From a virus (taxonomy: Duplodnaviria; Heunggongvirae; Uroviricota; Caudoviricetes), in IMG/VR virus record IMGVR_UViG_2778261667_000008, positions 1-44,055 of that record: DNA of 44,055 bases; one strand, given 5' to 3'. The notes below the pieces were generated by a model. That model saw only the letters and a program-made list of their open reading frames with translations, made no database searches and was not told the origin of the DNA. The translations under genes were made by a program, and so were the position numbers. Positions 3,530-31,159 of this stretch are shown here, piece by piece. Each line of letters begins with the position of its first letter. Within the stretch, counting starts at the first letter, position 1.

Positions 3530-6500
3530 TTAGCCACTTAACATTCCTCCATCACGTCGCATATTTAACAGAGCGCCCTGCACCCGCTGATCAACCATCC
3601 CCATAAGTGCTTTTATTGCCTGAGGACCAATCTCTCCATTCTGGCCGTCATTTTGAATAGTGATTTGGTATACAGGGGCATAAGTAATATCTCTGCCTCC
3701 ATTACCACTTTTACTATTAATAGCTCTGACACCAAGAGAACCATCGGAAGTTCGCGTTAATGGCATAATAGCTTCCGGTCCAGCCTCACCAAAAACACCA
3801 GCTCCTTTTGCAAAAGCAAAAAATTGCGGGGAGTCATAAATACCGTTCGAATATGTACTCAATGACGGAGACTCATAAACACCGCCCTTTGCATTCGGAA
3901 TAAATTTACTAATAGCACTCCCGATAGTTCCTAAAATACCCCCAGAAGAACTGTTACTAATGCTGTCGAAAATCCCAGTAATTGAAGCCTTTAATGCAAT
4001 TCGACTAAGATCCGAAATCACGGAAGTAGCGAAAGAACGAAAATTTGCCTTGCCTGTCGTGACAAAATCACCTAGCGCATCGGTCATCCCATCAAACATC
4101 TGAGTCGTGGTTGATTTTATCTGCGCACCGATATCCTTAGTGTCATCCAGCCAGTTATTGAATCCCTGGGAGGCACCACTAATCCAGTCTCCTGCCTGAA
4201 TATCGAGCTGCTCGTTTTTCTGGCTGACAATTTCTTTTTCTCGTTCCAGAGCATCATTCAGAGCCTGCATTTTCTCCTGAAAAACATGATTTGACATTCC
4301 ACGGGATTTATCTGCATAGTCACGTTCAAGTTGCAGACGCTGATTGTTATATTCACGTTCAATCCGCAGTAATTCCTGCTGGCGTTGCTGATTTTTATCG
4401 CCAACCCCATAACCAGCAATCTGAATATCATACCCCTGCTGACGATTATCAATCGAAGCCTGCAATGAATCACGCCATGCGGCTATTTCGGCGGATTCTT
4501 TGATTAGCCTGCTATTTTTTTCAATCGCAACATTTTTCTCCATCAACGCGGTTATTTCTTCCCGGTGTAAGAGAAGTGATTTCTGCTCTTGGGTTAATTT
4601 CGATGACGGTCGTGACTCTAGGTCGGCAATCTGCTGACGCCACTTAACCAGTTCCTGTTCAGAGGAACTTAATTTAACGGTCAATTCAGCTTGTGAACTT
4701 AGTAACGCATTCTGTTGATTCAGATGATCAATCATTCGTTGGGCAGCATCATCCGAATAACCTTTCGCCTTTGGTTGCTTTGGATCTTTATAACGCTCAT
4801 TTATTTGAGCGATAAGATTATTATATTCTTCCTTTGAATACTGATTCTTTAGCTTTTCCAGTTTTGCAAGTTCACTAGCTCTCTGCTGCTCCCGGGTCTG
4901 ATATTGTTTTGAAAAAGCATCTGCTCTCTGTCTGAGTTCAATTCCTTCCTGTTGTCGCTTGTTGTAATCGTTTATTGATGAATTTAGTACGTCCTGAGCA
5001 ATTTTTTCTGCTTGAAGTACGCCCAATTGCTGCTTTAATCGTGCCAGCTTTTTATTTTGAGCTCCGCCATCTCCAATGCCACCTAACCCGAAAACTCCGG
5101 GTCGGGTATTTTTTTCTATTTCATCAATTTGACGGAGAACATCTGAGATTTTTTGATCAAGGGAGGCCTCACGGCCAATATCCAGCATGGAATCCCATGC
5201 CCATTTTGCGGAGTCTGCGACAGCTTTCCATGCAGTCTCAAGATAACCAAGATTTTCTTTAATCTGGTTGGTGCGCTGGATCATTGAGGATGAGTATGCT
5301 TCTGTCGCAATGCGGGCGGCCTCCTGCTGGTTCCCTTCATCCTGTAGCGCCTTAATTTGGTTATAAGTCGCAAGTGTCAGAAAATGGTACTGATCATTAA
5401 GTTTTGATATAGCACTGACAGGATCCTTTGCAATTTCATTGAAGTCATTAACCAGTTGTTCGGTTGATATTCCTGTTACTTCGCTCGTTTTTACTATCGC
5501 TGTCGTCACTTGCTCCAGCGAACTGCTCGCTACCTTTCCCGAACGCACAAGCTGGTTTAATACTGCCGCCGCAGCGCCAGTTGTCGAATCAGCCGCATTC
5601 CCGGCACGTTGAGCTATATCGGCCAATTGCCCGCTGGTTGTCCCCAACTGATTTCCGGTAAGAATAAGAGATTTATTAAATTCGTTCTGCTCCTGAGAGC
5701 CTTTATAGTAAGCCAGCCCTAAGACGCCAACGGCTGCTGCGGCCAGGGTAAAAGGATTAATTAATCCCAGCACATAAGAACCAACACCTTTGATCGCCGG
5801 GCCAATCCCACCGAACATATCTTTTAGCTGGCCGCCCTGCTGCATTAACACCATAAAAGGCGACTGACCAGTGGACAACCCAACAACAATATCCGTCATT
5901 TGTGCAGGCAACATGCGCATAGCAAAAGCCGTTTGTTTTGCCGACATTCCGGTTTTGCTTAGTTGCGATTGAGTAGCCTCAAGCTCACTCCGCATAGCAC
6001 GAAGTTTTCCTGAAAGCTCCTCATACATTTCAGGAGAAAGCATCCCCTTGGCTTTTGCTTCGCTGAGTTGCTTTTGCTGCTCTGTCAGGCGGTTAAAAGC
6101 AGTTCCGACAGGGTCAAGTTGAGCAATCAGACGTTGCAAAGCAACAACCTGTTCATCATGCGCTTTTGCTGCTTCTCGCTCTGCCTGAGCCTCTCCGGTA
6201 AGCTCTCGCCGTGTTTCCTGTATTTTTCGGCTATAATTCTCAAACTGAGAACCATTTATTTTCCCGGATGCAAACGCAGCATTAAGTTCATCCTGCTGTT
6301 GTTCAAGATTTCTTAGCGCCGCAGCCAGAGGGTCGATCTTGTCCAGCATTCTTTGAAAGGCCTGAGCCTGCGCTTCCTGCTGGGCGGCAGCAAGTTTTCC
6401 GGCCTTCTCGGCTTCTCTCTGCGCTTGCGCAACCCCGCTCAATTCCTCTGTGGTTTCATTAAGTTTACGGACAAGAAATTCATATTCTTCTTTATCAATA

Positions 6501-6763
6501 AGCCCTTTATCGAAAAATTTCTTTAATTCAGAATAGCGTCGACCGACAGTATCAATTGCGGCACCAACTGGATCAATAGCTGCTTTTAATTTTGCGAGCG
6601 CGTTCTTCTCATCTTCTGTTGCCTTAGTCACTTTCCCTGCGCTATTTGCAGCAGTTTTCCCAGCCTGCGTCATTTTGACTAATGAGGAGGTCAGATTGTC
6701 AGCATTATTTTTCGCTCCAGTGCTATCAATAATTATTGCGAGACGCGAGGTTTGCTCTGCCAT
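3530..6763 (-). CDS. Tail tape measure protein
   Basis: 1077 aa; long coiled-coil-rich Q/E/K/A sequence, Gly-rich hydrophobic segment, position immediately downstream of the G/GT chaperone genes; AGGAG SD before ATG at 6763. Confidence 0.85.
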
Positions 6764-6782
6764 TTATTAAAACTCCTGACAA

Positions 6783-6809
6783 CAAAAAACCCACCGAAGT
6801 GGGTTTCAG
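6783..6809 (-). terminator. Intrinsic terminator-like hairpin between GT chaperone genes and tape measure gene
   Basis: Minus-strand sequence AACCCAC-TTCG-GTGGGTT followed by TTTTGTTG. Confidence 0.45.
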
Positions 6810-6926
6810 GCGACATAATAGTAGATATAGCGATTACGAGGTCACGCAATGCTTTTCTCCAGGAGCATCATCGATTTAATTAAAGACACCATCACATCTC
6901 TGTAACAGAGTGTACGTAATTAACAA

Positions 6927-7247
6927 CTACACACACTGCTCCTGAAAATACTGGTCATCCAGTGCAAAGATCACTGCTTCAAATTCATCGCGCTCAATCA
7001 ATACCGGATGAGTGGCTAAATATTCATTTATCTCTGTCAGAGATAAAGGCAAAGGCACCCCAGTCATTCCAGCATAACGTCGGGCACGGGATATTACCGA
7101 ATAGGCGTACAACAATTCCTTAAGCACCGGGTCTATTTCTGGTTCCGGTATCGGTGGCAACCTGAGTTTTTCTCGCTTCCATCTTGCCTTTTCCCCCCTT
7201 TCTCCCCCGAACTCCGATAACCACCGTTGGGCGGCTATGGCTTTTTT
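6927..7247 (-). CDS. C-terminal extension of tail assembly chaperone (GT-type product reached by -1 frameshift)
   Basis: The -1 frame is open from the slippery heptamer at 7247..7241 through the 77-aa ORF ending at 6927 (hand translation KKAIAAQRWLSEFGGERGEKARWKREKLR then LPPIPEPEID...). Confidence 0.6.
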   Translation of the reverse strand, partial: KKAIAAQRWLSEFGGERGEKARWKREKLRLPPIPEPEIDPVLKELLYAYSVISRARRYAGMTGVPLPLSLTEINEYLATHPVLIERDEFEAVIFALDDQYFQEQCV

Positions 7248-7696
7248 ATCGTATCCTGCTTCTGCTGCTCTTTACCCTGGGCGATGCTGGCTGCTTCTGC
7301 AAGGATCTGCCAGTACAACTCTGGATTCTGCCTAAGCAGCGCGATCCCTCGTTCTGGCGTATATTCCAGTGCAACCTCAACACCATTAACCAGTTCACCA
7401 ACCCCTTTCCAGTCTTTCAGCAGATAACGAGCGGCATTATCAATGAGTAAATCATCAACAGAATCCACCTCGGAAACCTTTGAAATATCAAACTCCTTCG
7501 TTCCGACGTGCAAACTGGCATCCATTTTCTCAATGTGGCGACGGATTAATGCATTACGGGAGCGATACTGATCGTTATCGCTGCTTGCCACCAACAGTTT
7601 TAACCCGTCTACAGGTTTTAAGTCCTTCATTGGCGTAAACCAGCGTTCTCCACCGATGATAATTTTCTGATTAAGAATAAACATCCATAACCTCAT
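7235..7696 (-). CDS. Tail assembly chaperone (G-like)
   Basis: 153 aa, acidic, between major tail protein and tape measure genes; ends at the slippery site. Confidence 0.65.
   Translation of the reverse strand: MRLWMFILNQKIIIGGERWFTPMKDLKPVDGLKLLVASSDNDQYRSRNALIRRHIEKMDASLHVGTKEFDISKVSEVDSVDDLLIDNAARYLLKDWKGVGELVNGVEVALEYTPERGIALLRQNPELYWQILAEAASIAQGKEQQKQDTIKKP
7241..7247 (-). promoter_or_regulatory. Programmed -1 ribosomal frameshift slippery heptamer A AAA AAG
   Basis: Minus-strand AAAAAAG located 2 codons before the stop of the 153-aa chaperone ORF; zero frame reads ATA AAA AAG CCA TAG. Confidence 0.6.
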
Positions 7697-7744
7697 TCAA
7701 TGCGTCCCCCTGTAGTGCAGTACCACAGGGGGAATAACGGAAAA

Positions 7745-8707
7745 TCAACTAATCGCCTCAGCACTGGCTTTTGCGATCACGGCAGCCGGAGAGTTTTTTT
7801 TTCTGGTTATCGTAGGTGCTTCATCTGCTGCGGTAATGCTCAATTGAACCTGGATAATGTCGGTATTACCCCCATCAGGCCATTCACCTGACACCTGAAC
7901 CTTCGGGAAACTGAAAGTGTATGCCCCCTCTCCATTCGAAAGCGTGAAGCTGAACGGAACTGTTTCTCCAGTCAGTGTTTTACTCCAGATTTCCCATGCA
8001 GCTTTAGACCATGAAAGCGTCACCGTACCGGACGGTGTAAAAGTAGTCGGAATATTTGCTCCTGCATAAGGCGAGCCAGTCCCGATACAACGCTGTGTCT
8101 GGAGTTTGTTATCGAACTGAATATCAAAACTGTCGATACAAAAACCGTTACCTCCGGCAACACCATTCAGGCTTACTGCTGAAACCTCCTTAAACGAATA
8201 ACGTAGCTTTCCTGCACTATCCACAGGTTCGCCTTTGATAAAATTCGTATCATCGGCCTTTGATTCCCAGTCCAGTCCGGCAAAGGTTACGGTCGCTGTA
8301 ATATCGCCGTCGTTAGGGATCTGCATTTTCCATGAGCCAACCTGCGCTCCTCTGACGACAGAGGCAATTCCGACATCGGACGCATAGGTCGCCAGAGAAA
8401 ATGTTATTCGCTCATTCCCCATTGTCAGAGAATCGCCTGACCATTCCGCGCCGAAACAGGATGCAAGAAAATCATCATGTTGACCCCAGCGAAATTTGGT
8501 ACCAACATCACCGCCGACATCCACAGTGCCAGGCGTCGCCCCCTGAGCCATCCGGGAGCCACCAATCTCATTATTTTCGCCTTTATTCTGGGTGGGTTTT
8601 ACTCCCCAGCTTGTGCGTTTTAATAAACTCCAGTCACCACTTGCTGGCGTAGTGCCTGCAACCGTCTCCCGGATAAATGCCGAGATAACCTTTGCACCTG
8701 AACTCAC
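7745..8707 (-). CDS. Major tail protein (tube), with C-terminal Ig-like extension
   Basis: 320 aa, Gly/Ser/Thr-rich beta-type composition; position upstream of the G/GT chaperones. Confidence 0.6.
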   Translation of the reverse strand: MSSGAKVISAFIRETVAGTTPASGDWSLLKRTSWGVKPTQNKGENNEIGGSRMAQGATPGTVDVGGDVGTKFRWGQHDDFLASCFGAEWSGDSLTMGNERITFSLATYASDVGIASVVRGAQVGSWKMQIPNDGDITATVTFAGLDWESKADDTNFIKGEPVDSAGKLRYSFKEVSAVSLNGVAGGNGFCIDSFDIQFDNKLQTQRCIGTGSPYAGANIPTTFTPSGTVTLSWSKAAWEIWSKTLTGETVPFSFTLSNGEGAYTFSFPKVQVSGEWPDGGNTDIIQVQLSITAADEAPTITRKKNSPAAVIAKASAEAIS

Positions 8708-15116: not shown

Positions 15117-16424
15117 TTAAATCCGAAGTGATGTGACTCTTCCGGTCGGTTTGACAATAGGGAATTGCTTAACGATGAAATAACCTCCGGCATCATTCGG
15201 GTGATCATTGCCAGATTTTTTATCAGGCTCCCCCTTATCATCCCAGACCTGTTGCTCCAGAGATTCGGCATATACCGGACAACGCTTCACATTAACTTTA
15301 TAGCGACGCTCACCATTGGCATTGCAGAACATTGCATTCATTGAGTTAACGCGATCTTTTACTGGCGGGTTCGAGCTGTTCACCACAACGTTAAAACCTG
15401 CCTGCTTAAGCTGGGCTATATCCGTCGTACTTGCGTTACTTGATTTTCTGGAATCTCCGGAAGCATCTGGATAAATATAAATCTCCCTCACTTTCCGGTA
15501 ATCATTCCCGTCATACAGCCAGAAGCGTTCTTTAATGATGCGGATCATATCCGGCGTATCGTAAGCATTGATGATTTCAGTTACCGCACATGGAAGCCCC
15601 AAACGCAGCACATGGACGATCCCCGCCATCTTTCCAACGTTAAAATCCATCCCAATATAAATCGGCTCCCCTGGCTGCTCCACTTCTTCGCAATTATTCA
15701 GTTTCCGGTCAAACTGATGGTAAACAGTACCACTTGTCAGGTTAGTAAACTGTCCTCGAAGATAGGCTTTAATCAGCTCTGGAGGGTATGATTCAAGAAG
15801 CGAAGGAATGTAATCTGCTGGCAGGTTCTTTTCATTATCGAAAGTAGATGCCTGCACCAGACCATACAGTGAGGCCAGCTCTGTTTTTTCACGCACGGCT
15901 TTAACAAACTGCTCGTAGACAAATTTGAATCCTTCCGGCGTGGTTGTAACGTCAATACCGTTGCGAAGTCCATCAATCTTATAACGCATACGCGCAATTA
16001 TCTTGCGCCACGCCGTTCTGGCTTTTTCCTTCGGCAAAATGTCCAGTTCATCCACCAGCGCATTACCAATTTTGAAACCGACGATCGTTTGTGGCTTCTC
16101 CATCGATCTGCAGATAGTGGTTCCCCGATACTGGCGTCCGTAATAAAAGTGAACCTCTTTATTTCCCTCATTAATTTTTACGTTCAATCCCCAGTCAGCA
16201 GCAACTTCTTCCACTGTAGGGTAAAAAATATCGCGAATTTGGGGATACGTTGGCGCAAAATATCCCTGATTTATACCTGGATGCTCCCAAATCCCCTTGC
16301 ATATGCCGCCACACCCAACCCATGTTTTGCCCGAGCCAAAACCAGCAATATAGGCTTTAAATTTATGGGGCATTGAAAGAAATCGCGCCTGAGGCACATT
16401 AAGCGTCGGAGAGATCATCTTCAT
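15117..16424 (-). CDS. Terminase large subunit
   Basis: Walker A AGFGSGKT near the N-terminus, size ~435 aa, nuclease-type C-terminal half; track start 16427 is GTG, ATGs at 16424 and 16418. Confidence 0.8.
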   Translation of the reverse strand: MKMISPTLNVPQARFLSMPHKFKAYIAGFGSGKTWVGCGGICKGIWEHPGINQGYFAPTYPQIRDIFYPTVEEVAADWGLNVKINEGNKEVHFYYGRQYRGTTICRSMEKPQTIVGFKIGNALVDELDILPKEKARTAWRKIIARMRYKIDGLRNGIDVTTTPEGFKFVYEQFVKAVREKTELASLYGLVQASTFDNEKNLPADYIPSLLESYPPELIKAYLRGQFTNLTSGTVYHQFDRKLNNCEEVEQPGEPIYIGMDFNVGKMAGIVHVLRLGLPCAVTEIINAYDTPDMIRIIKERFWLYDGNDYRKVREIYIYPDASGDSRKSSNASTTDIAQLKQAGFNVVVNSSNPPVKDRVNSMNAMFCNANGERRYKVNVKRCPVYAESLEQQVWDDKGEPDKKSGNDHPNDAGGYFIVKQFPIVKPTGRVTSLRI

Positions 16425-17493
16425 CACTCCTTAATCTGGCATCAACCACATTAATATTGATCGCCACAGGCTGGGGATGTTCATTATCCTCCACCGTTTC
16501 GATCTCTTTGCGCAGCTTCTGGTTTTCCATTCTGCGCCGTTCAATTTCCAGTTCCTGTAGCCGCTTATCTGCACATAATGCCCCGCCAGCAGAAAGCAAA
16601 CGCAACAATTCACGCCGGGCGGCAGCCTTATCCTCCAGCAGGATCTCAACACCGTATTTTCCGAGCTTTGACCCTGCATATAATTGCCGCGCATCCCCAT
16701 CAAGCAGTGTGGTATCAGCCATATAAAGCTGTCCCGTTCCCTCACCGCAGCACTTCGGGCAATCCGGATTGGGTATGGCGTTATCAACAAAGCCGAGGCC
16801 TCCATATTCCGGCTCGGGTTTACCATCTCTGGAGGCCTGTGCCGCAGCCTTATCGAATTCTGCAATATCACGCCACTGGTAGAGATGATTCTCGCCCCAG
16901 CAATAACGGCAGTTAACACGGCGAAATTGTGCCAACTGATTGGGGTCGGCCTGGACAATGGCCATCAACTGGCTCACCAGTAAATCCAGGTCTGCGGTAT
17001 AGCGTTTCTGGTACTGATTGCGGAAGTAGCTGATAGCACGATAAACCCTGGCATTTCTAAGCATACGGCTGGCGTTGCTGTTAGCTGTCGCACCTTGCCC
17101 CTCATAACCAGCCAGTCGGTATGCCTCTGTCGGCTTTTTCCCCTGAGCAACCAACATGGCGAATTTTGCCTGCTGGTCAGAAATACCGAATTCATCGGGG
17201 CAGAACGAAATTTCTTCCGTGTCCCCCTCAATCAGGAATGCATCGGATACAGCCTTTTTTTTCTGAGATTTTCCGTTCTGCCTTTGCGCAGTCTGCGCAG
17301 TTTTTTTTCGCGCACTTTTTTGCGCAGTTTTGCGCATTTCTTTCTGCGCATTTTTCGGAGTTTTTTTGATGTAACGACGGGCTGTTGCGTAGTTCAGTCC
17401 CCTTGCTTCACACCATGCCACCGGAGATATACCGGAGCGGGTGTATTCAGCAATATACTCCTGCTGCAACGCCCCCCAGTCCGGTCTGCTCAT
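16399..17493 (-). CDS. Terminase small subunit-like DNA-binding protein
   Basis: 364 aa; N-terminal HTH-like segment, lysine-rich low-complexity linker, Cys-rich C-terminal half (CRYCWGE...CPKCCGE); directly upstream of and overlapping the terminase large subunit. Confidence 0.5.
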   Translation of the reverse strand: MSRPDWGALQQEYIAEYTRSGISPVAWCEARGLNYATARRYIKKTPKNAQKEMRKTAQKSARKKTAQTAQRQNGKSQKKKAVSDAFLIEGDTEEISFCPDEFGISDQQAKFAMLVAQGKKPTEAYRLAGYEGQGATANSNASRMLRNARVYRAISYFRNQYQKRYTADLDLLVSQLMAIVQADPNQLAQFRRVNCRYCWGENHLYQWRDIAEFDKAAAQASRDGKPEPEYGGLGFVDNAIPNPDCPKCCGEGTGQLYMADTTLLDGDARQLYAGSKLGKYGVEILLEDKAAARRELLRLLSAGGALCADKRLQELEIERRRMENQKLRKEIETVEDNEHPQPVAININVVDARLRSDEDDLSDA

Positions 17494-17496
17494 CAG

Positions 17497-17748
17497 TTAG
17501 TCCTGATTTTTATCCACCCTGAGTAGTTCGCGCAGAGCAAAGGCATCCCCTTTTCTGGCAAGCTTAAACAATGCCGCTCGTAACTCGGCTTCACCTTTCG
17601 CTCTGCCCTTACGGATGGCCGCATAAAAATCTGTCATTGCTTCCCGATTTTCTTTCAGTCGGTTCAGATCAACATCCAGAACGTCAGCGATTTGTTGTGC
17701 AGTCATCCGGCACGCTGCCAGAGACTCGACTTTCGAATACGGAATCAT
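17497..17748 (-). CDS. Small HTH-type protein coupled to the terminase genes
   Basis: 83 aa; ATG at 17748 with GGGGGTGA SD; its stop and the next start form TAACTGATG. Confidence 0.35.
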   Translation of the reverse strand: MIPYSKVESLAACRMTAQQIADVLDVDLNRLKENREAMTDFYAAIRKGRAKGEAELRAALFKLARKGDAFALRELLRVDKNQD

Positions 17749-18640
17749 TTGTCACCCCCATTGATATGCAGGGTGTCTTCTTCCTGTATTTTTCGTGAAG
17801 GATTTTTACTGCAGCGTTGTTCCAGGTGACCTGATGGTGAATGCGTTTATGGCTGGCACCCATCAGTGAGATTTTTACGCACGACGGCGAATACATGACG
17901 GAGTAAAAACTTTTAACGTAGGTTCCGGAATCCAGATACAGCTCGGTCATTCCGCCGCTGTTTTTCTGCGTCTGTTTCTGCCCTAACTGGACAGCACCGA
18001 TCGTCATAAACAATTCACCACAGCGACCGAGATTCGTGTACGTATTCACATCCTCGTTAATGCGCCCCATGAATGAGAACGGTCGATCAACCGAACAGAT
18101 AAAGCTGTTCATTGCCTTGCGTTTCACCCACGAAGCATGGCCGCCATTGTCACCAAGAAAATCCCCGCCCTGCGACATAGCGATGGAAAGCGCGGGTATT
18201 GATTCGTAATACGCCAGCATTTCAGAAAGGATCGCATCCAGTTTCCTTATCGGGAAATAGGCCTGGTCATAGTTGCGATCCACCCGAAACTGGAACTCGT
18301 GATAATCATCATCGAGCTGAATGAAGTATTTACACCCGACCAGTTTTGCCAGGTCGAAACAGGCATTACGGGCGTAAAAAATTGAGCGGCGGTCACCAAA
18401 ATTATCGGCTTCGTCAAAACGACTGGCAATATCGGCTTTGGAAAATACCAGCACCTGTTCACCAAATTCAGCCATGTACTGATGCCGTGTCTTATCTTCA
18501 TCATCAACAACGATAAAAATTTTCCCGGTATAGCCAGCACGACGCAACGTCCGGTAAGTCAGAACTTTGTCCGGTCGCCCGTGAGTCAGAATAAAGGCGC
18601 AAAAATCATCACGCATATTCCTCCTCCTCCTCCCCGCCAT
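17684..18640 (-). CDS. Hypothetical 318-aa protein (possible nucleotide-sugar-transferase-like fold; function unknown)
   Basis: ATG at 18640 with GGAG SD; acidic motifs FIVVDDEDK and IQLDDDYHEF; follows the ParB-like gene and precedes the terminase genes. Confidence 0.5.
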   Translation of the reverse strand: MAGRRRRNMRDDFCAFILTHGRPDKVLTYRTLRRAGYTGKIFIVVDDEDKTRHQYMAEFGEQVLVFSKADIASRFDEADNFGDRRSIFYARNACFDLAKLVGCKYFIQLDDDYHEFQFRVDRNYDQAYFPIRKLDAILSEMLAYYESIPALSIAMSQGGDFLGDNGGHASWVKRKAMNSFICSVDRPFSFMGRINEDVNTYTNLGRCGELFMTIGAVQLGQKQTQKNSGGMTELYLDSGTYVKSFYSVMYSPSCVKISLMGASHKRIHHQVTWNNAAVKILHEKYRKKTPCISMGVTNDSVFESRVSGSVPDDCTTNR

Positions 18641-19403
18641 GCATGATCTCCACCATGCGCTGCGTCATTCGGACAAATCCATTTTCAATAGCCTGCTGAT
18701 AATCAATGATCACCAGCGCCGACTCCTCGAAAAGGCACTGAATTTCAGCGGGGGCATGAGCGTAATAGTCCGCAATTCTGCTGAAATTAAACACTGTGTG
18801 ACGTTCTGCCGCACACAGGAGGAATTTCTCAATATCAGGATCAAGGGACGCCGAACGTATCCGGCTGATCAGCTCCTGAGTTTTCGTATCGTCGTACAGT
18901 TCACTGATATCCGGTTTACCGCCCGACGGCTCATAAACAGGCGTATCAATTTTCGTCGTATACGGCTCCTCCTCATTTCCTGTACCGGGCAAAACATCCG
19001 TCAACAGTTCATCAATTTCTGTCGGGATGAAGCCTGTCAGGGAGACATCAAAATCAGCATTGATTAGGTCCGACAGCTCCATCCGCAACAGATCTTCATC
19101 CCAGCCAGCATTCATCGGCAGGCGATTATCTGCCAGGCGGTACGCCTTTTTCTGCTCATCCGTCAGGCCAGACAGAACAATGACCGGAACAGAATCCATT
19201 TTGAGCATTTCAGCCGCCATAACACGACCGTGACCCGCAATAATTTCGCCCTTTTCGTCAATCAGCACCGGATTAGTCCAGCCGAATTGCTTAATACTTT
19301 CTACCAGTTGTGCCACCTGCTCAGTACTGTGCGTCCTGGCGTTGTGCGCATACGGTGACAATTCTTGTAATGGGCGATAGACTATCTTTAATTTCTCGCT
19401 CAT
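18609..19403 (-). CDS. ynaK: ParB-like nuclease domain protein
   Basis: 264 aa; N-terminal ParB/Srx-type segment (IDEKGEIIAGHGRVMAAEM...); acidic C-terminus; adjacent to trkG as ynaK is in K-12 Rac. Confidence 0.6.
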   Translation of the reverse strand: MSEKLKIVYRPLQELSPYAHNARTHSTEQVAQLVESIKQFGWTNPVLIDEKGEIIAGHGRVMAAEMLKMDSVPVIVLSGLTDEQKKAYRLADNRLPMNAGWDEDLLRMELSDLINADFDVSLTGFIPTEIDELLTDVLPGTGNEEEPYTTKIDTPVYEPSGGKPDISELYDDTKTQELISRIRSASLDPDIEKFLLCAAERHTVFNFSRIADYYAHAPAEIQCLFEESALVIIDYQQAIENGFVRMTQRMVEIMHGGEEEEEYA

Positions 19404-19540
19404 ACAGCCTTGCTTTATGAATAAAACGCACCCCAGCAGCCAGTGCTACTGGGGGCGGAGGTGTTGCTGGTAAAGTTAGGTATTGGATCAATGAGTGAGT
19501 CAACATAATATTAAACTCACAATTATAAATCAGCCATATA

Positions 19541-20998
19541 TTAGGAGCGCCAAAAAAAACCTGAAAACAATATAATAACAGGATAAATTTCAAGGCGACC
19601 AAGAATCATAGCTATGCACATTAAATATTTTGCAATGTCATTAAGCACTCCGAATGACGATGCAGTAGCCCCAAAACCTAATCCCATATTATTAATACAT
19701 GCAGCCACTGTTGCAAATGATGTAAGAAAATCATATCCCATACCATTTAACACCAGTATAAAAAACACCGTGAAGAGAGTATAAAGAAAAAAGAAACTCC
19801 ATACAGACCTCATTACACGATCTGTAACTATCTTCCCTCCTACATTTACACTCAACAACGCTCTGGGATGAGAAAGTTGATTTATCTCGTGTTTGCTTTG
19901 TTTGAAAAGTATAAGAAATCGAAGTGACTTAATTCCACCACAGGTTGAACCGATACATCCCCCAAAGAAACTTGACAACAGCAAAAACACTATCGTGTGC
20001 GTGGGCCAGTTTGCATAATCCTGCGTAGCTAAACCATTATCAGTGAGCATGGAGCTGGCAAGAAAAAACGAATGAATAAAACTTCCATGCAAGTCATACA
20101 TACCTATATGCCAGACCTGGAAAGAGGTAACAATGATCACCCCTAAGGCTATTAATAGAAAGAAACGAAGTTCAATATCTCTGATTAAAGGTTTTATCGT
20201 TTTTCTGCTAATAACAATATACCAAAGAGTGAAGTTGAAAGCCGATAGCAGGGAAAAAGAACCAGCCACCAGCTCAACCAAATAGTTATTAAAATATCCG
20301 ATACTCTCGCTATGAGTTGAGAAACCACCAAGCGAAACTGTGGAAATCCCGTGACAAATAGCATCAAACAAAGGCATTCCTGCAAGTCTATAACAGACAA
20401 TACAAGCAATACCTAATAAAGAATAAGTTATCCACAGTGTCCGTGACGTATCGGCCAGGCGGGGAGTGAGTTTGTCATCCTTAAATGGCCCCGGCATTTC
20501 TGACTGATAAAGCTTTGCACCACCAATACCCAATAATGGCAATACTGCAACCGCCAGAACAATAACTCCTAAACCACCTATAAAATTTAACTGTGACCGA
20601 TAGTACAAATATGCCCGAGGTAATGAACTAACATCATCAATTACAGTTGCTCCTGTTGTTGTTATTCCAGAAACCCCTTCAAACAGAGCATCAATGAACG
20701 TTAAATTAAGTTCTGAGTCAATCCATAAAGGGAATGCACTAATAACAGAAAACAAAATCCAAAACATTACAATTATAATAAACCCATCACGGGTACGTAA
20801 TTGAATGCCAGATTTCTTAGTTGTATACCACGCTCCGCCACCAATGCAAAAAAATATAACGAAAGTTATAAAGAAAACGAACAGGCTTTTTTCTTTATAA
20901 AACAATGCTACAACCATTGGTGGCAACATTGAAAGACTATAGAGCCAAACCAGGAACCCACACATATGAGTAACAACTCTTACATGAGATGTATTCAT
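19541..20998 (-). CDS. trkG: TrkH/TrkG-family potassium uptake membrane protein
   Basis: Polytopic membrane protein; sequence from MNTSHVRVVTHMCGFLVWLYSLSM... matches my recollection of K-12 TrkG; first ATG at 20998 (the track start at 21016 is TTG); AT-rich gene. Confidence 0.9.
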   Translation of the reverse strand: MNTSHVRVVTHMCGFLVWLYSLSMLPPMVVALFYKEKSLFVFFITFVIFFCIGGGAWYTTKKSGIQLRTRDGFIIIVMFWILFSVISAFPLWIDSELNLTFIDALFEGVSGITTTGATVIDDVSSLPRAYLYYRSQLNFIGGLGVIVLAVAVLPLLGIGGAKLYQSEMPGPFKDDKLTPRLADTSRTLWITYSLLGIACIVCYRLAGMPLFDAICHGISTVSLGGFSTHSESIGYFNNYLVELVAGSFSLLSAFNFTLWYIVISRKTIKPLIRDIELRFFLLIALGVIIVTSFQVWHIGMYDLHGSFIHSFFLASSMLTDNGLATQDYANWPTHTIVFLLLSSFFGGCIGSTCGGIKSLRFLILFKQSKHEINQLSHPRALLSVNVGGKIVTDRVMRSVWSFFFLYTLFTVFFILVLNGMGYDFLTSFATVAACINNMGLGFGATASSFGVLNDIAKYLMCIAMILGRLEIYPVIILFSGFFWRS

Positions 20999-21135
20999 AT
21001 CTAAATATTCTTTCAATTATAACCACCTTGCTGCAATATTATGATTATACTGTATAAAATTTAACTCCTCTTAGATTTTACTTCACTGTTCCTTATGAAA
21101 CAATCATCAAAATGAATCATATTGTAGTTAAGATT

Positions 21136-27955: not shown

Positions 27956-28933
27956 TCATAAAGTTAAATGCGGCCCTAAATACGCCACATATATCCGCTG
28001 ATTTACTGCGTCAGCATAAAAATGTAGGCGGTAACCGTCAGGTAGTTTTACATGATTCTCGCAATAGACCTGCCGTCCATCATCTAACCAAAATATGCGC
28101 TCTTTCTTCTTTTTGGGGGCATTATTTACACTGTCCGATTCACCGCTAACTTCAGCAGCCAAACCCAAATCTCTTAAATATTCATGACGGTACTCTACAT
28201 ACTCACCTGAACGCCATTTCTCACTAAACGATTCCAACACATTTAGCGCATCTCGTGCCTTGAACAAGACATTTTGCCTAGCAGACCAACCTTGTAGACT
28301 TGTACCTATTTGATTTGACAACAAAGTGAGATGAGGAAACAAATCTGCTCTTTTCAGCCAGATATCCTTAGCAGTACTTAACAACGTATTACGATGTTGT
28401 TTGAGTTCATCTCCATGCACATCCAAGCTCGCAGAATTACTCAGATTTAAAATCGTTTCATCCCTTTGTTCTGGTATTGCATCAAGCTCGAAAACCCATA
28501 CTTTAAAATGGCTATTTGTCCAAGTAGCTAAAGCCGTAAAACTAGCAAGAAAAGTTTTAAAATAAAACGCTGCTAATAGCACCGCTTTACCTGTATCTTC
28601 CCCTGGCAAGCCAACTTCTAATACATCACCTAAAGTTTCAATATCCACGGTTTCAAAGAGAGGCTGTTTCGTTTCAAGAGACTTTAGAAATCGACACCAA
28701 TCCGCAAGTTCTGCAACTTTGCTCGCAGAGGCAAGCCAATTGCGCACAAAATATCCGTTAGCCAGCTCCAATCCCATTAGCGACTTGTCTTGATCTTCAT
28801 CGATGAGCAAAATTTTCAGCCCAGCAGTTCGGCAGACCTTAAGAACAGTAAAGAAAGCCAATAGTCCTTCATCTGCATCCTCTTTGCTAGCAAATGGCAA
28901 AGAATGATGGTTCAACACAATTCCATTACTCAT
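27956..28933 (-). CDS. Hypothetical 325-aa protein, third gene of the DUF262/ATPase operon
   Basis: ATG overlaps the stop of the upstream ATPase gene (ATGA); AT-rich; no domain recognised by eye. Confidence 0.7.
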   Translation of the reverse strand: MSNGIVLNHHSLPFASKEDADEGLLAFFTVLKVCRTAGLKILLIDEDQDKSLMGLELANGYFVRNWLASASKVAELADWCRFLKSLETKQPLFETVDIETLGDVLEVGLPGEDTGKAVLLAAFYFKTFLASFTALATWTNSHFKVWVFELDAIPEQRDETILNLSNSASLDVHGDELKQHRNTLLSTAKDIWLKRADLFPHLTLLSNQIGTSLQGWSARQNVLFKARDALNVLESFSEKWRSGEYVEYRHEYLRDLGLAAEVSGESDSVNNAPKKKKERIFWLDDGRQVYCENHVKLPDGYRLHFYADAVNQRIYVAYLGPHLTL

Positions 28934-30039
28934 AACAGATGATCCAACTCCTTATCCCATTGGTCAAAGAAGCCTTCCGGCCAACAGTCTATTCGTCCCT
29001 CATCATCAATATTGGGGTACATGACTTCTGAGGCGTGAATGGAGTTATGAACATCTCGCTGTAAGAAAAAGACTTTGACATCGTCAGCTGCAACCACTTT
29101 CTGCTTCACCGCAACCCGTATACCGTTGAGAAAATGATCAGAATGAGATTCAACGATTAATTGCACGCCATTATTCGCAGCAATGGAGCACAATTTACCC
29201 ATCAAGGATTGCCCAGCGGGATGCAAGTGTGATTCTGGGTTTTCAATAATCAGCAAATCACCTTTTGCCGCACTTAGTATACTGGTTACGACAGGTAACA
29301 CATAACTTAATCCAAACCCCACATTCTGTGGTTTAAAGTCTTCGGTGGTGTCTTTCCCTTGGTTAAAAGAGTAACTAAGACTCACCGAATTAAACTGAGG
29401 CTGCGCTACTGCTTTAATTTTTAACCCTGGCGTAATATCCGACATCCATGCTTCAATATTAGAAAGCAAAGTCCCTGAAACAGCCTTTTGATGGCGTAAC
29501 GCTTCTATTTCCAGGTCTTTAGCGCCATTAACCGCGATAAAATGAACTGCAAATTCGCCATGATGACCAAGTGATTTTAAATCACGGATATGAAACTCAG
29601 ACAACTGGTGATGGCTTTGTGGGCCTAACCTATCGGCACATAAATACTGAAAATTAGAGTTAAATAAGCTTAATAATTCTGAATCACCGTCAATACCAGA
29701 TTTACGCAGCGGCAGCAGATCTGAGTCATGTTGATAATCAAACTCAAACCGTGTTGGCTGTTCTTTCTCGAGCCATTTAATGGTAAAAATAATCTCTTCT
29801 TGTTCACTAAAACTAGAGAGCGCGTCTTTACCCGTACCGATATTGACATAATCACCATTTAACAGCAAACCCTTAGTTTTAAGGGTATTGCGTTCATAAG
29901 ACTGCCTTAAAAGCAATAAACTTTGCACAAGCGTTGATTTTCCCATGCCATTAAGGCCTGAGAACAGATTCAGATTACCCAGTGGAAAACTGGCATTTAA
30001 CAAGGTTTTAAAGTTTTGAATATTAATAAACTCAATCAT
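28930..30039 (-). CDS. AAA_21/ABC-type ATPase (OLD/AriA/PtuA-like ATPase architecture, no nuclease domain evident)
   Basis: Walker A GLNGMGKST near the N-terminus; LLIIENPESHLHP (DEPExxLHP-type Walker B/D-loop signature); C-terminal ...CWPEGFFDQW; start overlaps the upstream gene's stop by 8 nt. Confidence 0.8.
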   Translation of the reverse strand: MIEFINIQNFKTLLNASFPLGNLNLFSGLNGMGKSTLVQSLLLLRQSYERNTLKTKGLLLNGDYVNIGTGKDALSSFSEQEEIIFTIKWLEKEQPTRFEFDYQHDSDLLPLRKSGIDGDSELLSLFNSNFQYLCADRLGPQSHHQLSEFHIRDLKSLGHHGEFAVHFIAVNGAKDLEIEALRHQKAVSGTLLSNIEAWMSDITPGLKIKAVAQPQFNSVSLSYSFNQGKDTTEDFKPQNVGFGLSYVLPVVTSILSAAKGDLLIIENPESHLHPAGQSLMGKLCSIAANNGVQLIVESHSDHFLNGIRVAVKQKVVAADDVKVFFLQRDVHNSIHASEVMYPNIDDEGRIDCWPEGFFDQWDKELDHLL

Positions 30040-31159
30040 TAAGCATCTCTTTAATCAAAGCATTGACTTTTTCATACCGTATTTCCACATGCTCTTTTCG
30101 CTGAGTGGAGTAGCTAATAACATTAATAAATTCAGCATCTTCCAATAACGTCTGCACCTTTTTTTGAAACTTTTTTTGATTATAAACCAAGCGGTTAAAC
30201 TCGTTTTCAGTTAATTTCACCAACATAACCATCCAGACTTCAAATAGTGTTGCATTTTTTGACCGTCTTCTTGATGCAGGGTTTTTTTCAAAACCCTTTT
30301 CTCCTAACAGTTGGTAACAGCGCTCTATTGCAGTTGAATACTTAGCTTTAAACTCTGCACGGTAGGCATCATCACCTTTTTTGATATCTTCCATGGCTTT
30401 ATCTAAAAACGAAGAAATTTCTTTTTTGTTTTTAGGGTCTAAATAATCAAAGCGATAGAACGCCCAGAATCGCAATACCAGTTCCTGATCCTTCATACGT
30501 TTGGAAAGGTCACCTAGCATGGCTTTCGAGCATGCTGAATTGGCTAACTCTTCGAGCAATTCTCTGTCTCTTGGCTTAGCGAGCGCATTACGGATCTCTT
30601 GATTATTTAGAGTTAAGCCACCTGTATTGATCCGGCGAAACACCGAATACTTAACGTCCTCAGGCGTACCCGGCTTAATCATGTACACAGTAACAGGACA
30701 TTCTTCAATACGGCGTTGATATTGACGATGTAATTTATCGAAGGTTTTACCATTAAGGTCTGTTAAGAACTCCAGTCCATTGAGACGAAGCTTTTTATCT
30801 AACACAAACTTGCGAATCGTAGATAACCGCTGCAAGCCATCCACAATTAGCCAATTATTTTCATCGGACGCATCGAAGTAGAAAGCAGGTAATGGGAACC
30901 GAATCAAAATTGATTCGATTAATCGGCTCATCTTGCGGTTATCCCATAACTCCGCATGGCGCTGAAAATCGGTATTCATGTCGATCTCATTGTGCTGAAT
31001 TCGCTTAATCAAGGCATCCAACGACTTCGGTTCAACGACGATATCAATATCAGTCGGGTTGAACGGGTGCATCACCTCATCAAGCAGTTCCGGCTCTTCC
31101 TCTTCCGCACCTGGCGCAACCAACTCTTCATCAAGCTCGGTTTCTTGATAATCAACCAT
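30032..31159 (-). CDS. DUF262-like (ParB/Srx-fold, GmrSD N-domain-like) protein
   Basis: 375 aa; FQR...W...IVDGLQRLSTI matches the DGQQR signature region of DUF262; acidic N-terminal tail; ATG at 31159 with AAGGGGAAG SD. Confidence 0.7.
   Translation of the reverse strand: MVDYQETELDEELVAPGAEEEEPELLDEVMHPFNPTDIDIVVEPKSLDALIKRIQHNEIDMNTDFQRHAELWDNRKMSRLIESILIRFPLPAFYFDASDENNWLIVDGLQRLSTIRKFVLDKKLRLNGLEFLTDLNGKTFDKLHRQYQRRIEECPVTVYMIKPGTPEDVKYSVFRRINTGGLTLNNQEIRNALAKPRDRELLEELANSACSKAMLGDLSKRMKDQELVLRFWAFYRFDYLDPKNKKEISSFLDKAMEDIKKGDDAYRAEFKAKYSTAIERCYQLLGEKGFEKNPASRRRSKNATLFEVWMVMLVKLTENEFNRLVYNQKKFQKKVQTLLEDAEFINVISYSTQRKEHVEIRYEKVNALIKEMLND

What the first reader, a model, noticed from the sequence alone, without database searches (positions are those of the whole stretch)
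17684..19403. ParB-like nuclease-domain gene paired with an unrecognised 318-aa gene just upstream of the terminase genes
Seen: a ParB/Srx-type protein (ynaK-like, 264 aa, acidic tail) is followed, with a 32-nt overlap, by a 318-aa protein carrying acidic DxD-like motifs (VVDDEDK, QLDDDYHEF) reminiscent of nucleotide-sugar or nucleotidyl transferases, whose 3' end overlaps the first terminase-associated gene. Established: phages often carry ParB-like nuclease plus DNA-modification genes next to the packaging genes. Inference: the 318-aa protein could be a DNA- or protein-modifying enzyme or an anti-restriction factor. K-12 Rac retains only remnants of this region as I recall.
Basis: partly seen in the sequence, partly recalled or inferred. 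Interest (0 to 1): 0.5.

Follow-up and report, generated by a model that had tools for sequence, protein, structure and literature searches.

The report
Orphan DNA-type glycosyltransferase with dedicated ParB-like partner
The "unrecognised" gene belongs to the sugar-transferase family that phages and trypanosomes use to glycosylate DNA bases, and it is always encoded next to a ParB-like partner protein, but this E. coli prophage has no enzyme to make the modified base such transferases normally act on, so its target is unknown.

Summary
Both genes exist as described, on the minus strand of a Rac-like lambdoid prophage, between trkG and the terminase genes.

**The 318-aa ORF.** It is not unrecognised. 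It matches Pfam PF20691 (TET-associated glycosyltransferase, TAGT), and newer NCBI annotation calls it "GREB1-related protein". Its real start is M9 (window 18616, 310 aa, 8-nt overlap with ynaK). It has a GT-A fold and invariant R / DDD / NED motifs.

**The main result is the pairing.**
- All 50 informative loci, from Proteobacteria, Bacteroidota, Firmicutes, Saccharibacteria and others, carry a YnaK homolog upstream on the same strand. In 47 it directly abuts the TAGT gene, usually with overlapping stop and start codons. The archaeal virus HHTV-2 has the same pair.
- The invariant part of YnaK is a previously undescribed acidic C-terminal domain of about 110 aa, not the ParB/Srx N-domain.
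- That domain also occurs alone as a roughly 130-aa protein. The pair then sits in phage replication modules rather than before the terminase genes.

**What is missing.** No TET/JBP or hydroxymethylase gene accompanies the pair, here or recurrently elsewhere.

**Best reading (about 0.45).** A partner-dependent, late-expressed DNA glycosyltransferase with an unknown acceptor, analogous to ParB-dependent phage thymine dioxygenases. Protein glycosylation or self-glycosylation is the main rival. The module is intact in about 16% of complete E. coli genomes, so it is easy to test.

The parts
18609..19403 (-). Full-length ynaK (264 aa): the partner protein of the glycosyltransferase
   Evidence: ORF. 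Pfam ParB_N and PHROG 620 hits. Intact (262-264 aa) in 78 of 79 assessable IMG/VR copies.
18999..19403 (-). ParB/Srx-fold N-terminal domain (aa 1-135), carrying the GHGR box-II-like motif at aa 57-60
18912..18962 (-). Conserved linear motif YTTKIDTPVYEPSGGKP (aa 148-164) in a low-confidence linker. Y148 and Y157 are invariant.
   Evidence: Alignments. pLDDT is 42-64 over this stretch. Coordinates checked.
18654..18968 (-). YnaK C-terminal domain (aa 146-250): an acidic, helical, undescribed family and the invariant partner of TAGT
18622..18633 (-). Two overlapping-in-register GGAGGA Shine-Dalgarno copies for the TAGT start, formed by the Glu codons of the YnaK tail
   Evidence: The number of Glu codons varies from 3 to 5 between strains.
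17684..18616 (-). TAGT-family GT-A glycosyltransferase gene (310 aa from the conserved start; the maximal ORF runs to 18640)
   Evidence: Pfam PF20691 E 6e-35; PHROG 842 E 1.5e-103. Start conserved. AF2 model and Foldseek hits to GT-A enzymes.
18575..18580 (-). Invariant G13-R14 (THGR), the 'R' of the R...DDD...ED motif of phage GT-A DNA glycosyltransferases
   Evidence: The motif is defined in bioRxiv 10.1101/2023.12.21.572611.
18494..18505 (-). DDED (aa 38-41) of VVDDEDK; D38 and D41 are invariant
18305..18313 (-). DDD (aa 102-104), followed by invariant Y105: the DxD-type metal/nucleotide-sugar motif
18050..18058 (-). NED (aa 187-189), invariant; corresponds to the 'ED' element of the family motif
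17687..17761 (-). C-terminal extension of TAGT (aa 286-310), absent from homologs outside Escherichia/Shigella. It reads through into the next gene in another frame.
   Evidence: Homologs outside Escherichia/Shigella end near aa 285. pLDDT is below 50.
17497..17748 (-). 83-aa gene between the TAGT gene and terS; a likely small terminase-associated protein
   Evidence: phrog_309 E 8e-23. The N-terminus MxPYxKxExLAAxR is conserved in Pantoea and Serratia, so the 69-aa PGAP call looks too short.
15117..17493 (-). terS (16399-17493) and terL (15117-16427), immediately downstream; part of the module's conserved context
   Evidence: Terminase_2, Terminase_6N and Terminase_6C hits.
19431..19454 (-). 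Terminator-like hairpin after trkG, 28 nt upstream of the ynaK start
   Evidence: It implies that the pair is expressed by antiterminated late read-through (inference).

Best explanation
ynaK and the downstream gene form one translationally coupled, late-expressed two-gene module.

**The enzyme.** The downstream protein is a catalytically intact TAGT-family GT-A glycosyltransferase. It is basic (pI about 8.8).

**The partner.** YnaK is its dedicated partner subunit and is acidic. It has three parts:
- a ParB/Srx-type nucleotide-binding N-domain;
- a flexible linker carrying an invariant Tyr-rich motif;
- a new helical C-terminal domain.

**Proposed mechanism.** The C-terminal domain binds and activates or gates the transferase. 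The complex transfers a sugar from a host nucleotide-sugar onto phage DNA after replication, around the time of packaging, and so changes how host nucleases or sensors see that DNA. This is modelled on phage ParB proteins that activate cognate thymine dioxygenases on double-stranded DNA.

**Shown here:**
- family membership, fold and motif integrity;
- obligate pairing across phyla;
- genomic context in packaging or replication modules;
- purifying selection.

**Inferred:**
- physical complex formation;
- DNA as the acceptor;
- timing of action;
- the benefit to the phage.

**Unknown.** The acceptor group is unknown, because the prophage has no enzyme that makes 5-hydroxymethyl-pyrimidines.
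For: **Family and catalytic integrity**
- PF20691, 121.5 bits; PHROG 842.
- GT-A fold.
- R14, D38/D41, D102-104 and N187-E188-D189 are invariant in 22 sequences. This matches the R...DDD...ED motif of phage GT-A enzymes shown to glycosylate 5hmC in DNA.

**Pairing**
- In 52 loci, one per bacterial species, all 50 with upstream DNA carry a YnaK homolog upstream on the same strand. In 47 the gap is -10 to +45 nt; in 3 another ORF intervenes.
- The same pair occurs in metagenomic phages with different terminases and in the archaeal virus HHTV-2.
- In the window the stop and start overlap by 8 nt and the SD lies inside the YnaK tail.

**Which part of YnaK tracks the enzyme**
- Mean pairwise identity is 0.51 for TAGT, 0.47 for the C-domain and 0.28 for ParB_N.
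- Divergence of TAGT correlates with that of the C-domain (r 0.35) more than with ParB_N (r 0.10) among distant pairs.

**DNA-related context**
- A terminase large subunit of several different Pfam families lies within three ORFs downstream.
- When the partner is the stand-alone C-domain, the pair sits among SSB, PolA, sliding clamp, Holliday-junction resolvase, dUTPase, RecA and clamp loader genes.

**Sugar chemistry nearby in other phages**
- Epimerase, GDP-mannose dehydratase, nucleotidyltransferase and UDP-glucose dehydrogenase genes, and second TAGT copies.
- TAGT fused to SAM-methyltransferase or sulfotransferase domains.

**A universal acceptor is implied.** Enzymes from phages of archaea, Gram-positive and Gram-negative hosts are 39-59% identical.

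**Precedent.** ParB-like proteins with an NBD-linker-CTD layout and no DNA-binding domain are required for 5mYOX activity on dsDNA (PMC13229309). The YnaK model has the same layout.

**Selection.** 79 of 80 TAGT copies and 78 of 79 assessable ynaK copies are intact; codon changes in the TAGT gene are 61 synonymous and 34 non-synonymous.
Against: - No acceptor-generating enzyme is present. There is no TET/JBP, thymidylate-synthase-like hydroxymethylase or other hydroxylase in the window or in two annotated sister prophages. None recurs within three or four ORFs of the pair in 52 loci.
- No TAGT member is known to glycosylate unmodified DNA.
- YnaK is strongly acidic in both domains and has no recognisable DNA-binding domain, so it probably does not tether the enzyme to DNA directly.
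- The box-II arginine of the ParB domain is not conserved across the family, and 12 of 50 partners lack the ParB domain. NTP-dependent clamping therefore cannot be essential.
- One family member, GREB1, glycosylates a protein (PMC7968844).
- There is no robust enzyme-partner fusion: only one, probably artefactual.
- No experimental data on DNA from any phage carrying the pair were found in the searchable literature.
Confidence: 0.45

Rival explanations
1. Protein glycosylation. TAGT glycosylates a protein rather than DNA. The acceptor would be either YnaK itself, on the invariant Tyr/Thr of the YTxKIxxPxYEP linker motif (glycogenin-like self-priming), or a protein that YnaK presents to it, such as a packaging or replication factor.
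For: - GREB1, a TAGT-family member, O-GlcNAcylates ER-alpha (PMC7968844).
- The nearest solved folds include protein and peptide glycosyltransferases: GalNAc-Ts, ColGalT1/LH3, SunS, glycogenin.
- The only two universally conserved components are the enzyme and the partner domain. The partner carries two invariant tyrosines in a disordered linker.
- No hydroxylated DNA base is available.
- An acidic partner and a basic enzyme suit an enzyme-substrate or enzyme-adaptor pair.
Against: - Context is consistently DNA replication or packaging, and the partner is often fused to a ParB/Srx domain, which in phages accompanies DNA-modifying enzymes.
- Stoichiometric self-modification gives no obvious benefit.
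- Most characterised family members act on DNA.
Confidence: 0.2
2. Small-molecule or counter-defence enzyme. The pair glycosylates a diffusible nucleotide-like molecule, for example an immune signalling nucleotide, NAD-derived product or dNTP pool component. The ParB/Srx domain supplies nucleotide binding.
For: - ParB/Srx folds bind ATP, CTP or GTP and include small-molecule kinases (SerK, SbnI), seen as structural neighbours (PMC12704722).
- A universal small molecule would explain conservation across host domains.
Against: - The ParB domain is dispensable in a quarter of pairs.
- Neither protein hits any PADLOC defence model, apart from the ParB domain of methyltransferases.
- The genes lie in late, packaging or replication modules rather than early anti-defence regions.
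- No family precedent exists.
Confidence: 0.1
3. Lysogenic-conversion glycosyltransferase. The enzyme would modify a cell-surface polymer (O-antigen, teichoic acid), like Gtr or TarP enzymes. Its position next to ynaK would then be incidental.
For: - TarP and RmlT-type wall-polymer GT-A enzymes are among the structural neighbours.
- Prophages often carry such genes.
Against: - The pairing with YnaK is universal, not incidental.
- The enzyme is 39-59% identical in phages of archaea, Gram-positive and Gram-negative hosts, whose surface polymers differ.
- It lies inside the late operon behind a terminator, not in a moron with its own promoter.
- No flippase or bactoprenol-GT partners are present.
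Confidence: 0.04

Closest known systems
T2/T6 beta-glucosyl-HMC-alpha-glucosyltransferase (founding phage TAGT, PF20691)
   Same: Same Pfam family and same PHROG (842). GT-A fold with a DxD-type motif. Phage-encoded (PMC13216743).
   Different: - The T-even enzyme adds a second glucose to already glucosylated 5-hmC, made by a dCMP hydroxymethylase plus alpha-GT pathway that is absent here.
- T-even phages do not appear among tblastn hits at E<=1e-10, so this is a separate subfamily.
- Whether T-even phages have a YnaK-type partner was not examined here.
5mYOX (TET/JBP)-associated phage GT-A glycosyltransferases and kinetoplastid base-J glucosyltransferase
   Same: Shares the R...DDD...ED active-site signature. 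These enzymes act post-replicatively on DNA and are often near ParB and terminase genes.
   Different: Those enzymes use 5hmC or 5hmU made by an adjacent dioxygenase, with or without a C5-methyltransferase. No such gene accompanies this subfamily. The literature notes many 'solitary' GTs or TAGTs but leaves them uncharacterised.
ParB-dependent phage thymine dioxygenases (ParB176/5mYOX176; PMC13229309)
   Same: A ParB-like protein with an N-terminal nucleotide-binding domain, an unstructured linker and a C-terminal domain, but no DNA-binding domain, is encoded beside a DNA-modifying enzyme and is needed for its activity on dsDNA. YnaK has the same layout.
   Different: - The client enzyme here is a glycosyltransferase, not a dioxygenase.
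- Homology of the C-terminal domains could not be tested because no sequences were available.
- Here the C-domain alone suffices as partner in many phages, whereas ParB176 needs both domains.
ParB-domain-DNA methyltransferase fusions of prophages (PHROG 498; PADLOC MTase_II)
   Same: A closely similar ParB/Srx N-domain (E 9e-51 and 1.7e-38 over aa 3-144). PMC12704722 reports such ParB-methyltransferase fusions as strongly enriched in prophage regions.
   Different: In those proteins the ParB domain is covalently fused to the modifying enzyme. Here it is fused to an adaptor domain and the enzyme is a separate polypeptide with different chemistry.
GREB1 (animal O-GlcNAc transferase of ER-alpha)
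   Same: Same TAGT domain family. NCBI names the E. coli protein 'GREB1-related'.
   Different: GREB1 is a large multidomain cytoplasmic protein acting on a protein substrate. There is no ParB-like partner and no phage context.

Membership tests
TAGT, TET-associated glycosyltransferase (Pfam PF20691) | Sequence match to the family HMM above the curated threshold | tested here: met
   121.5 bits against a cut-off of 27.5; E 6e-35; profile positions 4-205 of 205. PHROG 842 E 1.5e-103.
TAGT, TET-associated glycosyltransferase (Pfam PF20691) | GT-A (Rossmann-like, DxD) fold | tested here: met
   AF2 model: mean pLDDT 70, mostly above 90 over roughly the first 140 residues apart from a dip around aa 61-80. 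Foldseek best hits are SpsA, RmlT, ColGalT1/LH3, WrtF and GnT-I, all GT-A enzymes (probability 1.00, E about 3e-5; TM only about 0.4).
TAGT, TET-associated glycosyltransferase (Pfam PF20691) | Conserved active-site residues (R ... DDD ... ED) | tested here: met
   R14, D102-D104 and E188-D189 are invariant in 22 homologs. Motif as described in 10.1101/2023.12.21.572611.
TAGT, TET-associated glycosyltransferase (Pfam PF20691) | Genomic association with an enzyme that creates the hydroxylated base acceptor (TET/JBP dioxygenase, or dCMP/dUMP hydroxymethylase plus primary GT) | tested here: not met
   None in the 44-kb window or in annotated sister prophages. Neither TET_JBP nor thymidylate-synthase families appear among families hitting two or more of 200 flanking ORFs in 52 loci.
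TAGT, TET-associated glycosyltransferase (Pfam PF20691) | Transfer of a sugar from a nucleotide-sugar to a DNA-linked acceptor | not testable with these tools
   Needs biochemistry or nucleoside mass spectrometry.
ParB/Srx N-terminal domain superfamily (PF02195) | HMM match and ParB/Srx fold | tested here: met
Canonical partition ParB (ParABS; TIGR00180) | HTH DNA-binding domain, ParA partner and full-length model score | tested here: not met
   TIGR00180 scores 38.1 bits against a cut-off of 58.45. PDB matches stop at position about 120, with no HTH. No parA in the prophage. The protein is acidic.
Canonical partition ParB (ParABS; TIGR00180) | Box-II arginine (GxxR) for NTP phosphate binding | tested here: inconclusive
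   Present in the window copy (GHGR, aa 57-60) but replaced in many family members (GNG.., VNK..). NTP binding is not testable here.
ParB-activated DNA-modification pairs (as for 5mYOX176/ParB176) | ParB-like protein with NBD-linker-CTD and no DNA-binding domain, encoded beside the enzyme | tested here: met
   The AF2 model shows an N-domain, an unstructured stretch at aa 137-152 and a C-terminal helical domain. The partner is upstream in all 50 informative loci, directly adjacent in 47.
ParB-activated DNA-modification pairs (as for 5mYOX176/ParB176) | Enzyme activity on dsDNA depends on the partner | not testable with these tools
   Requires co-expression or in-vitro assays.
Prophage serotype-conversion glycosyltransferases (Gtr / TarP type) | Own moron-type expression, membrane or flippase partners, host-specific surface acceptor | tested here: not met
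   The gene lies inside the late operon behind a terminator-like hairpin. No Gtr-type partners are present. The enzyme is conserved across hosts with unrelated envelopes.

The most novel reading that the evidence does not exclude
The YnaK-TAGT pair installs a sugar on DNA that contains no hydroxymethyl-pyrimidines. That would be a new acceptor chemistry: a canonical base, a DNA end created during replication or packaging, or the backbone. It would use a new type of acidic activator domain. It would do so in a lambdoid prophage present intact in about one in six complete E. coli genomes, and in phages of many bacterial phyla and of haloarchaea. This would be a widespread, so far unseen DNA modification in one of the best-studied phage groups.
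Probability: 0.2. Interest if true: 0.85.

Novelty: new variant of a known kind. Interest (0 to 1): 0.6.

Why it matters
**A family member without its usual substrate.** DNA glycosylation in phages is known only as the last step of pathways that first create a hydroxylated pyrimidine. Recent papers note hundreds of phages with 'solitary' TAGT or GT-A genes and leave them unexplained (PMC13216743; bioRxiv 10.1101/2023.12.21.572611).

**What this analysis adds.** One large, very conserved solitary subfamily is never really solitary. It always comes with a dedicated partner domain that has no family assignment, often fused to a ParB/Srx domain. It sits in packaging or replication modules across bacterial phyla and in an archaeal virus.

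**Two possible outcomes.**
- If the target is DNA, this points to an unknown modification or acceptor chemistry. It would also extend the newly found 'ParB-like activator' principle from dioxygenases to glycosyltransferases.
- If the target is protein, it is a new phage protein-glycosylation system.

**It is testable.** The module is intact in 866 of 5426 complete E. coli genomes, so standard E. coli genetics and nucleoside mass spectrometry can address it directly.

Tried and rejected
1. **Hidden acceptor-making enzyme.** I scanned the finding's genes and the unannotated or cargo ORFs of the window with Pfam, and read the PGAP annotation of two sister prophages. No dioxygenase or hydroxymethylase was found. 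I also scanned 200 ORFs flanking the pair in 52 loci, and none was recurrent.
2. **Rosetta-stone fusion of partner and enzyme.** Only one single-sequence case turned up, probably a frameshift. The N-terminal extensions of other long TAGTs are not the YnaK C-domain. C-terminal fusions are methyltransferase or sulfotransferase domains.
4. **Comparing YnaK with the published 5mYOX-associated ParBs.** No sequences or supplements are held. Iyer et al. 2013 (PMC3763556), which defined TAGT and discussed ParB links, is not in the library. What I say about it rests on citing papers and on memory.
5. **Literature on ynaK, GREB1-related proteins, or ParB plus TAGT in prophages.** Nothing specific was found.
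6. **NCBIfam.** There is no model hit for the 310/318-aa protein or for the 83-aa protein.
7. **Rejected: the 318-aa start and 32-nt overlap.**
8. **Rejected: a nucleotidyltransferase fold.** The only such Foldseek hit is ADP-glucose pyrophosphorylase, at rank 50.
9. **Rejected: a canonical partition role for YnaK.**
Full report
**Setting.** The window is a Rac-like lambdoid prophage of E. coli. It carries recE/recT, int, the trkG moron, lysis genes, a P22-type capsid gene and lambda-like tail genes. All late genes lie on the minus strand. The finding lies between trkG (19541-21016) and the terminase genes. A 2.1-kb query spanning it matches 1606 of 5426 complete E. coli genomes, 866 of them over at least 80% of its length. 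It also matches ten deposited phage records.

**Observation.**
- The 264-aa ORF 18609-19403 is full-length YnaK. It has a ParB_N domain (PF02195, just above threshold), matches PHROG 620 end to end, and ends in an acidic tail, GGEEEEEYA.
- The 318-aa ORF 17684-18640 carries the quoted motifs.
- All 21 aligned homologs start at MRDDFCAF, which is M9 of the ORF. PGAP uses that start. The Glu codons of the YnaK tail (GAGGAGGAGGAGGAA) give two GGAGGA Shine-Dalgarno copies just upstream of that ATG.
- The gene is therefore 17684-18616 (310 aa). It overlaps the ynaK stop by 8 nt (ATGCGTGA), a classic translational-coupling arrangement.
- At its 3' end the E. coli protein has an extension of about 25 aa that homologs outside Escherichia/Shigella lack. 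The extension is modelled with pLDDT below 50. It overlaps by 65 nt an 83-aa gene whose N-terminus is conserved in Pantoea and Serratia. That gene matches part of a terminase-small-subunit PHROG.
- TerS and TerL follow.

**Identity of the 310-aa protein.**
- It is a clear member of Pfam PF20691, the TET-associated glycosyltransferase (TAGT) family (E 6e-35), and of PHROG 842, annotated 'beta-glucosyl-HMC-alpha-glucosyltransferase' (E 1.5e-103). RefSeq and UniRef call it 'GREB1-related protein'.
- An AlphaFold model built on 22 homologs has pLDDT mostly above 90 over roughly the first 140 residues, with a dip around aa 61-80. It is a GT-A fold. The best PDB matches are SpsA, RmlT, ColGalT1/LH3, WrtF and GnT-I.
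- R14, D38/D41, D102-D103-D104-Y105 and N187-E188-D189 are invariant. They correspond to the R...DDD...ED signature reported for phage GT-A enzymes that glycosylate 5hmC in DNA.
'Unrecognised' is not.

**The pairing is the real finding.**
- I fetched 52 loci encoding relatives of the enzyme from a one-genome-per-species collection. They come from Enterobacterales, Bacteroidales, Clostridia, Veillonella, Virgibacillus, Desulfovibrionaceae, Saccharibacteria, Planctomycetota, Chlorobi, Acidimicrobiia and others. The enzymes are 39-59% identical to the E. coli protein outside Enterobacterales.
- In all 50 loci that include upstream DNA, a YnaK homolog lies upstream on the same strand. In 47 the gap is -10 to +45 nt, and in 3 another ORF intervenes.
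- Metagenomic phages with quite different packaging systems show the same order, ParB-like, TAGT, TerS, TerL.
- So do Lactobacillus, Nocardia and Vibrio phages and the haloarchaeal virus HHTV-2, genes 21 and 22.
- Within three ORFs downstream there is a large terminase of several unrelated Pfam families: Terminase_6N in 16 loci, Terminase_3 in 6, GpA in 2-3, TerL_ATPase in 2, and T7-type RNaseH in 7.

**Anatomy of the partner.**
- Aligning 32 partners splits YnaK into two modules.
- The N-terminal ParB/Srx domain (aa 1-135) is variable, with 28% mean pairwise identity. Its box-II arginine (GHGR in E. coli) is often lost. It is missing altogether in 12 of 50 partners.
- The C-terminal part is the conserved one (47% identity). 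It begins with a linear motif, YTxKIxxPxYEPxGxKP, with invariant Y148 and Y157 in a low-confidence linker. A helical domain follows, with invariant L195, A198, R201, A211, Y214, Q222, L224, E226, L230, I232, D234, A238 and G242. That domain is modelled at pLDDT 88-97.
- A profile of the C-domain finds 3114 proteins. The best-scoring are nearly all stand-alone proteins of about 130 aa with no Pfam annotation.
- In three such cases looked up, TAGT lies immediately downstream. In two of them the pair is embedded among SSB, DNA polymerase A, sliding clamp, Holliday-junction resolvase, dUTPase, RecA and clamp-loader genes. The third sits near radical-SAM and GT9 genes.
- Among distant pairs, divergence of TAGT tracks the C-domain (r 0.35) better than the ParB domain (r 0.10).
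- The partner is acidic in both halves (median net charge -10 each, pI 4.6). The enzyme is basic (median +6, pI 8.8).

**What is missing.**
- Characterised TAGT-family DNA enzymes need a hydroxylated acceptor made by another enzyme. The T2/T6 enzyme needs glucosyl-5hmC. Phage GT-A enzymes need 5hmC made by a C5-methyltransferase plus 5mYOX. The base-J transferase needs 5hmU.
- The window has no TET/JBP, thymidylate-synthase-like or other hydroxylase gene. The PGAP annotation of two sister prophages shows none either.
- Among 200 ORFs flanking the pair in the 52 loci, no such family hits two or more members.
- What does recur occasionally is sugar chemistry. This includes epimerase, GDP-mannose dehydratase, nucleotidyl- and cytidylyltransferase and UDP-glucose dehydrogenase genes, and second TAGT copies. 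TAGT is also fused to SAM-methyltransferase or sulfotransferase domains. All of this fits an enzyme that builds a glycan.

**Interpretation.**
- The enzyme is intact and under purifying selection. In 80 IMG/VR copies, 79 TAGT genes and 78 of the 79 assessable ynaK genes are intact. Distinct codon changes in the TAGT gene are 61 synonymous and 34 non-synonymous.
- It is unusually conserved across phages of unrelated hosts. This argues for a universal acceptor rather than a host-specific protein or envelope polymer.
- DNA is the obvious universal candidate. Supporting points are the family's known chemistry, the frequent ParB/Srx fusion of the partner, and the position in packaging or replication modules.
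- The nearest mechanistic precedent was published in 2026. Phage ParB-like proteins with NBD, linker and CTD, and no DNA-binding domain, are required for cognate thymine dioxygenases to act on dsDNA (PMC13229309). YnaK has the same layout.
- I therefore favour a partner-dependent DNA glycosyltransferase. It would be expressed from the antiterminated late transcript, since a terminator-like hairpin follows trkG just upstream of ynaK. It would act before or during packaging.
- Confidence is only about 0.45, because the acceptor is unexplained and the acidic partner is unlikely to bind DNA itself.
- The main rival (about 0.2) is protein glycosylation, in the extreme case of YnaK's own invariant Tyr/Thr motif. 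GREB1 is a protein O-GlcNAc transferase, and many structural neighbours are protein glycosyltransferases.
- A small-molecule target (about 0.1) and surface-glycan conversion (about 0.04) fit the context poorly.

**Comparison with what is known, and novelty.**
- The protein family, its fold, and a loose association of ParB and terminase genes with phage DNA-modification clusters are already in the literature.
- So is the observation that many phages have 'solitary' GT or TAGT genes of undefined function: 288 of 753 phage genomes with any of the three glucosyltransferase types, and about 65% of GT-containing contigs.
- I found four points nowhere in the searchable literature:
  1. This solitary subfamily forms an obligate two-gene module.
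  2. Its invariant partner is a new C-terminal domain rather than the ParB domain.
  3. The module alternates between packaging and replication neighbourhoods.
  4. It lacks any acceptor-generating enzyme.
- Iyer et al. 2013, which defined TAGT, could not be read and may contain part of this.
- I rate it a new variant of a known kind, with interest 0.6. It is a well-defined and very common module in E. coli, with a precise open question and simple decisive experiments.

Noticed in passing
window 27956-31159 (-): A three-gene defence cargo matching PADLOC NsnA (GmrSD_N/DUF262 domain, 375 aa, E 3.5e-123), NsnB (AAA_15/AAA_21 + DUF3696 ATPase, 369 aa, E 9e-122) and NsnC (325 aa, E 1e-89). In strains EC93 and PCP06022 the same slot holds an Sll1717-family P-loop ATPase instead, so this is a variable defence island inside the prophage. 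The same prophage thus carries a GmrSD_N-domain protein (the domain of enzymes that attack glycosylated DNA) and a putative DNA glycosyltransferase.
   Followed up: partly
window 17497-17748 (-): The 83-aa ORF between the TAGT gene and terS has a conserved N-terminus (MxPYxKxExLAAxR) in Pantoea and Serratia homologs. The 69-aa RefSeq call (start at 17706) is probably too short. With the longer form, the E. coli TAGT gene overlaps it by 65 nt.
   Followed up: yes
window 18612-18633 (-): The YnaK acidic tail varies between strains from three to five Glu (GAG repeat; protein 262-264 aa). The same GAG run forms the Shine-Dalgarno sequence of the TAGT gene, so repeat slippage could tune TAGT translation.
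   Followed up: partly
E. coli genomes H1-H7 (e.g. NZ_CP019250.1 3416929-3420290): In several complete genomes the otherwise 100% identical region is split into two pieces by an IS3-family transposase. Two 'ParB/Srx' CDS fragments are annotated, so ynaK appears to be a recurrent IS target. In PCP06022 ynaK is annotated as a truncated pseudogene although the DNA matches the window.
   Followed up: no
window 19431-21016 (-): trkG (a K+ transporter moron, about 38-42% GC against about 49% for its neighbours) sits between the lysis genes and ynaK. It is followed by a strong terminator-like hairpin (10 bp stem, 7 GC pairs) 28 nt before the ynaK start.
   Followed up: partly
proteins P0248, P0251, P0285, P0287; loci L146 8314-9578, L147 7053-8455: In other phages the same TAGT subfamily is fused to C-terminal class-I SAM methyltransferase or sulfotransferase domains. 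Elsewhere it is followed by a second TAGT copy plus a cytidylyltransferase, or by radical-SAM and GT9 genes. This suggests more elaborate, tailored glycans in those phages.
   Followed up: partly
L142 (Halovirus HHTV-2, NC_021340.1) 6196-7858: The ParB-like + TAGT pair, with overlapping stop and start, also occurs in a tailed virus of the archaeon Haloarcula hispanica. Its TAGT is 43% identical to the E. coli enzyme, so the module crosses the bacteria/archaea boundary.
   Followed up: partly
proteins P0268, P0286, P0271, P0307, P0316: Several representative TAGTs carry N-terminal extensions of 180-270 aa that match neither Pfam (apart from a sub-threshold methyltransferase hit in P0286) nor the YnaK C-domain. 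These are unexplained additional architectures of the family.
   Followed up: no
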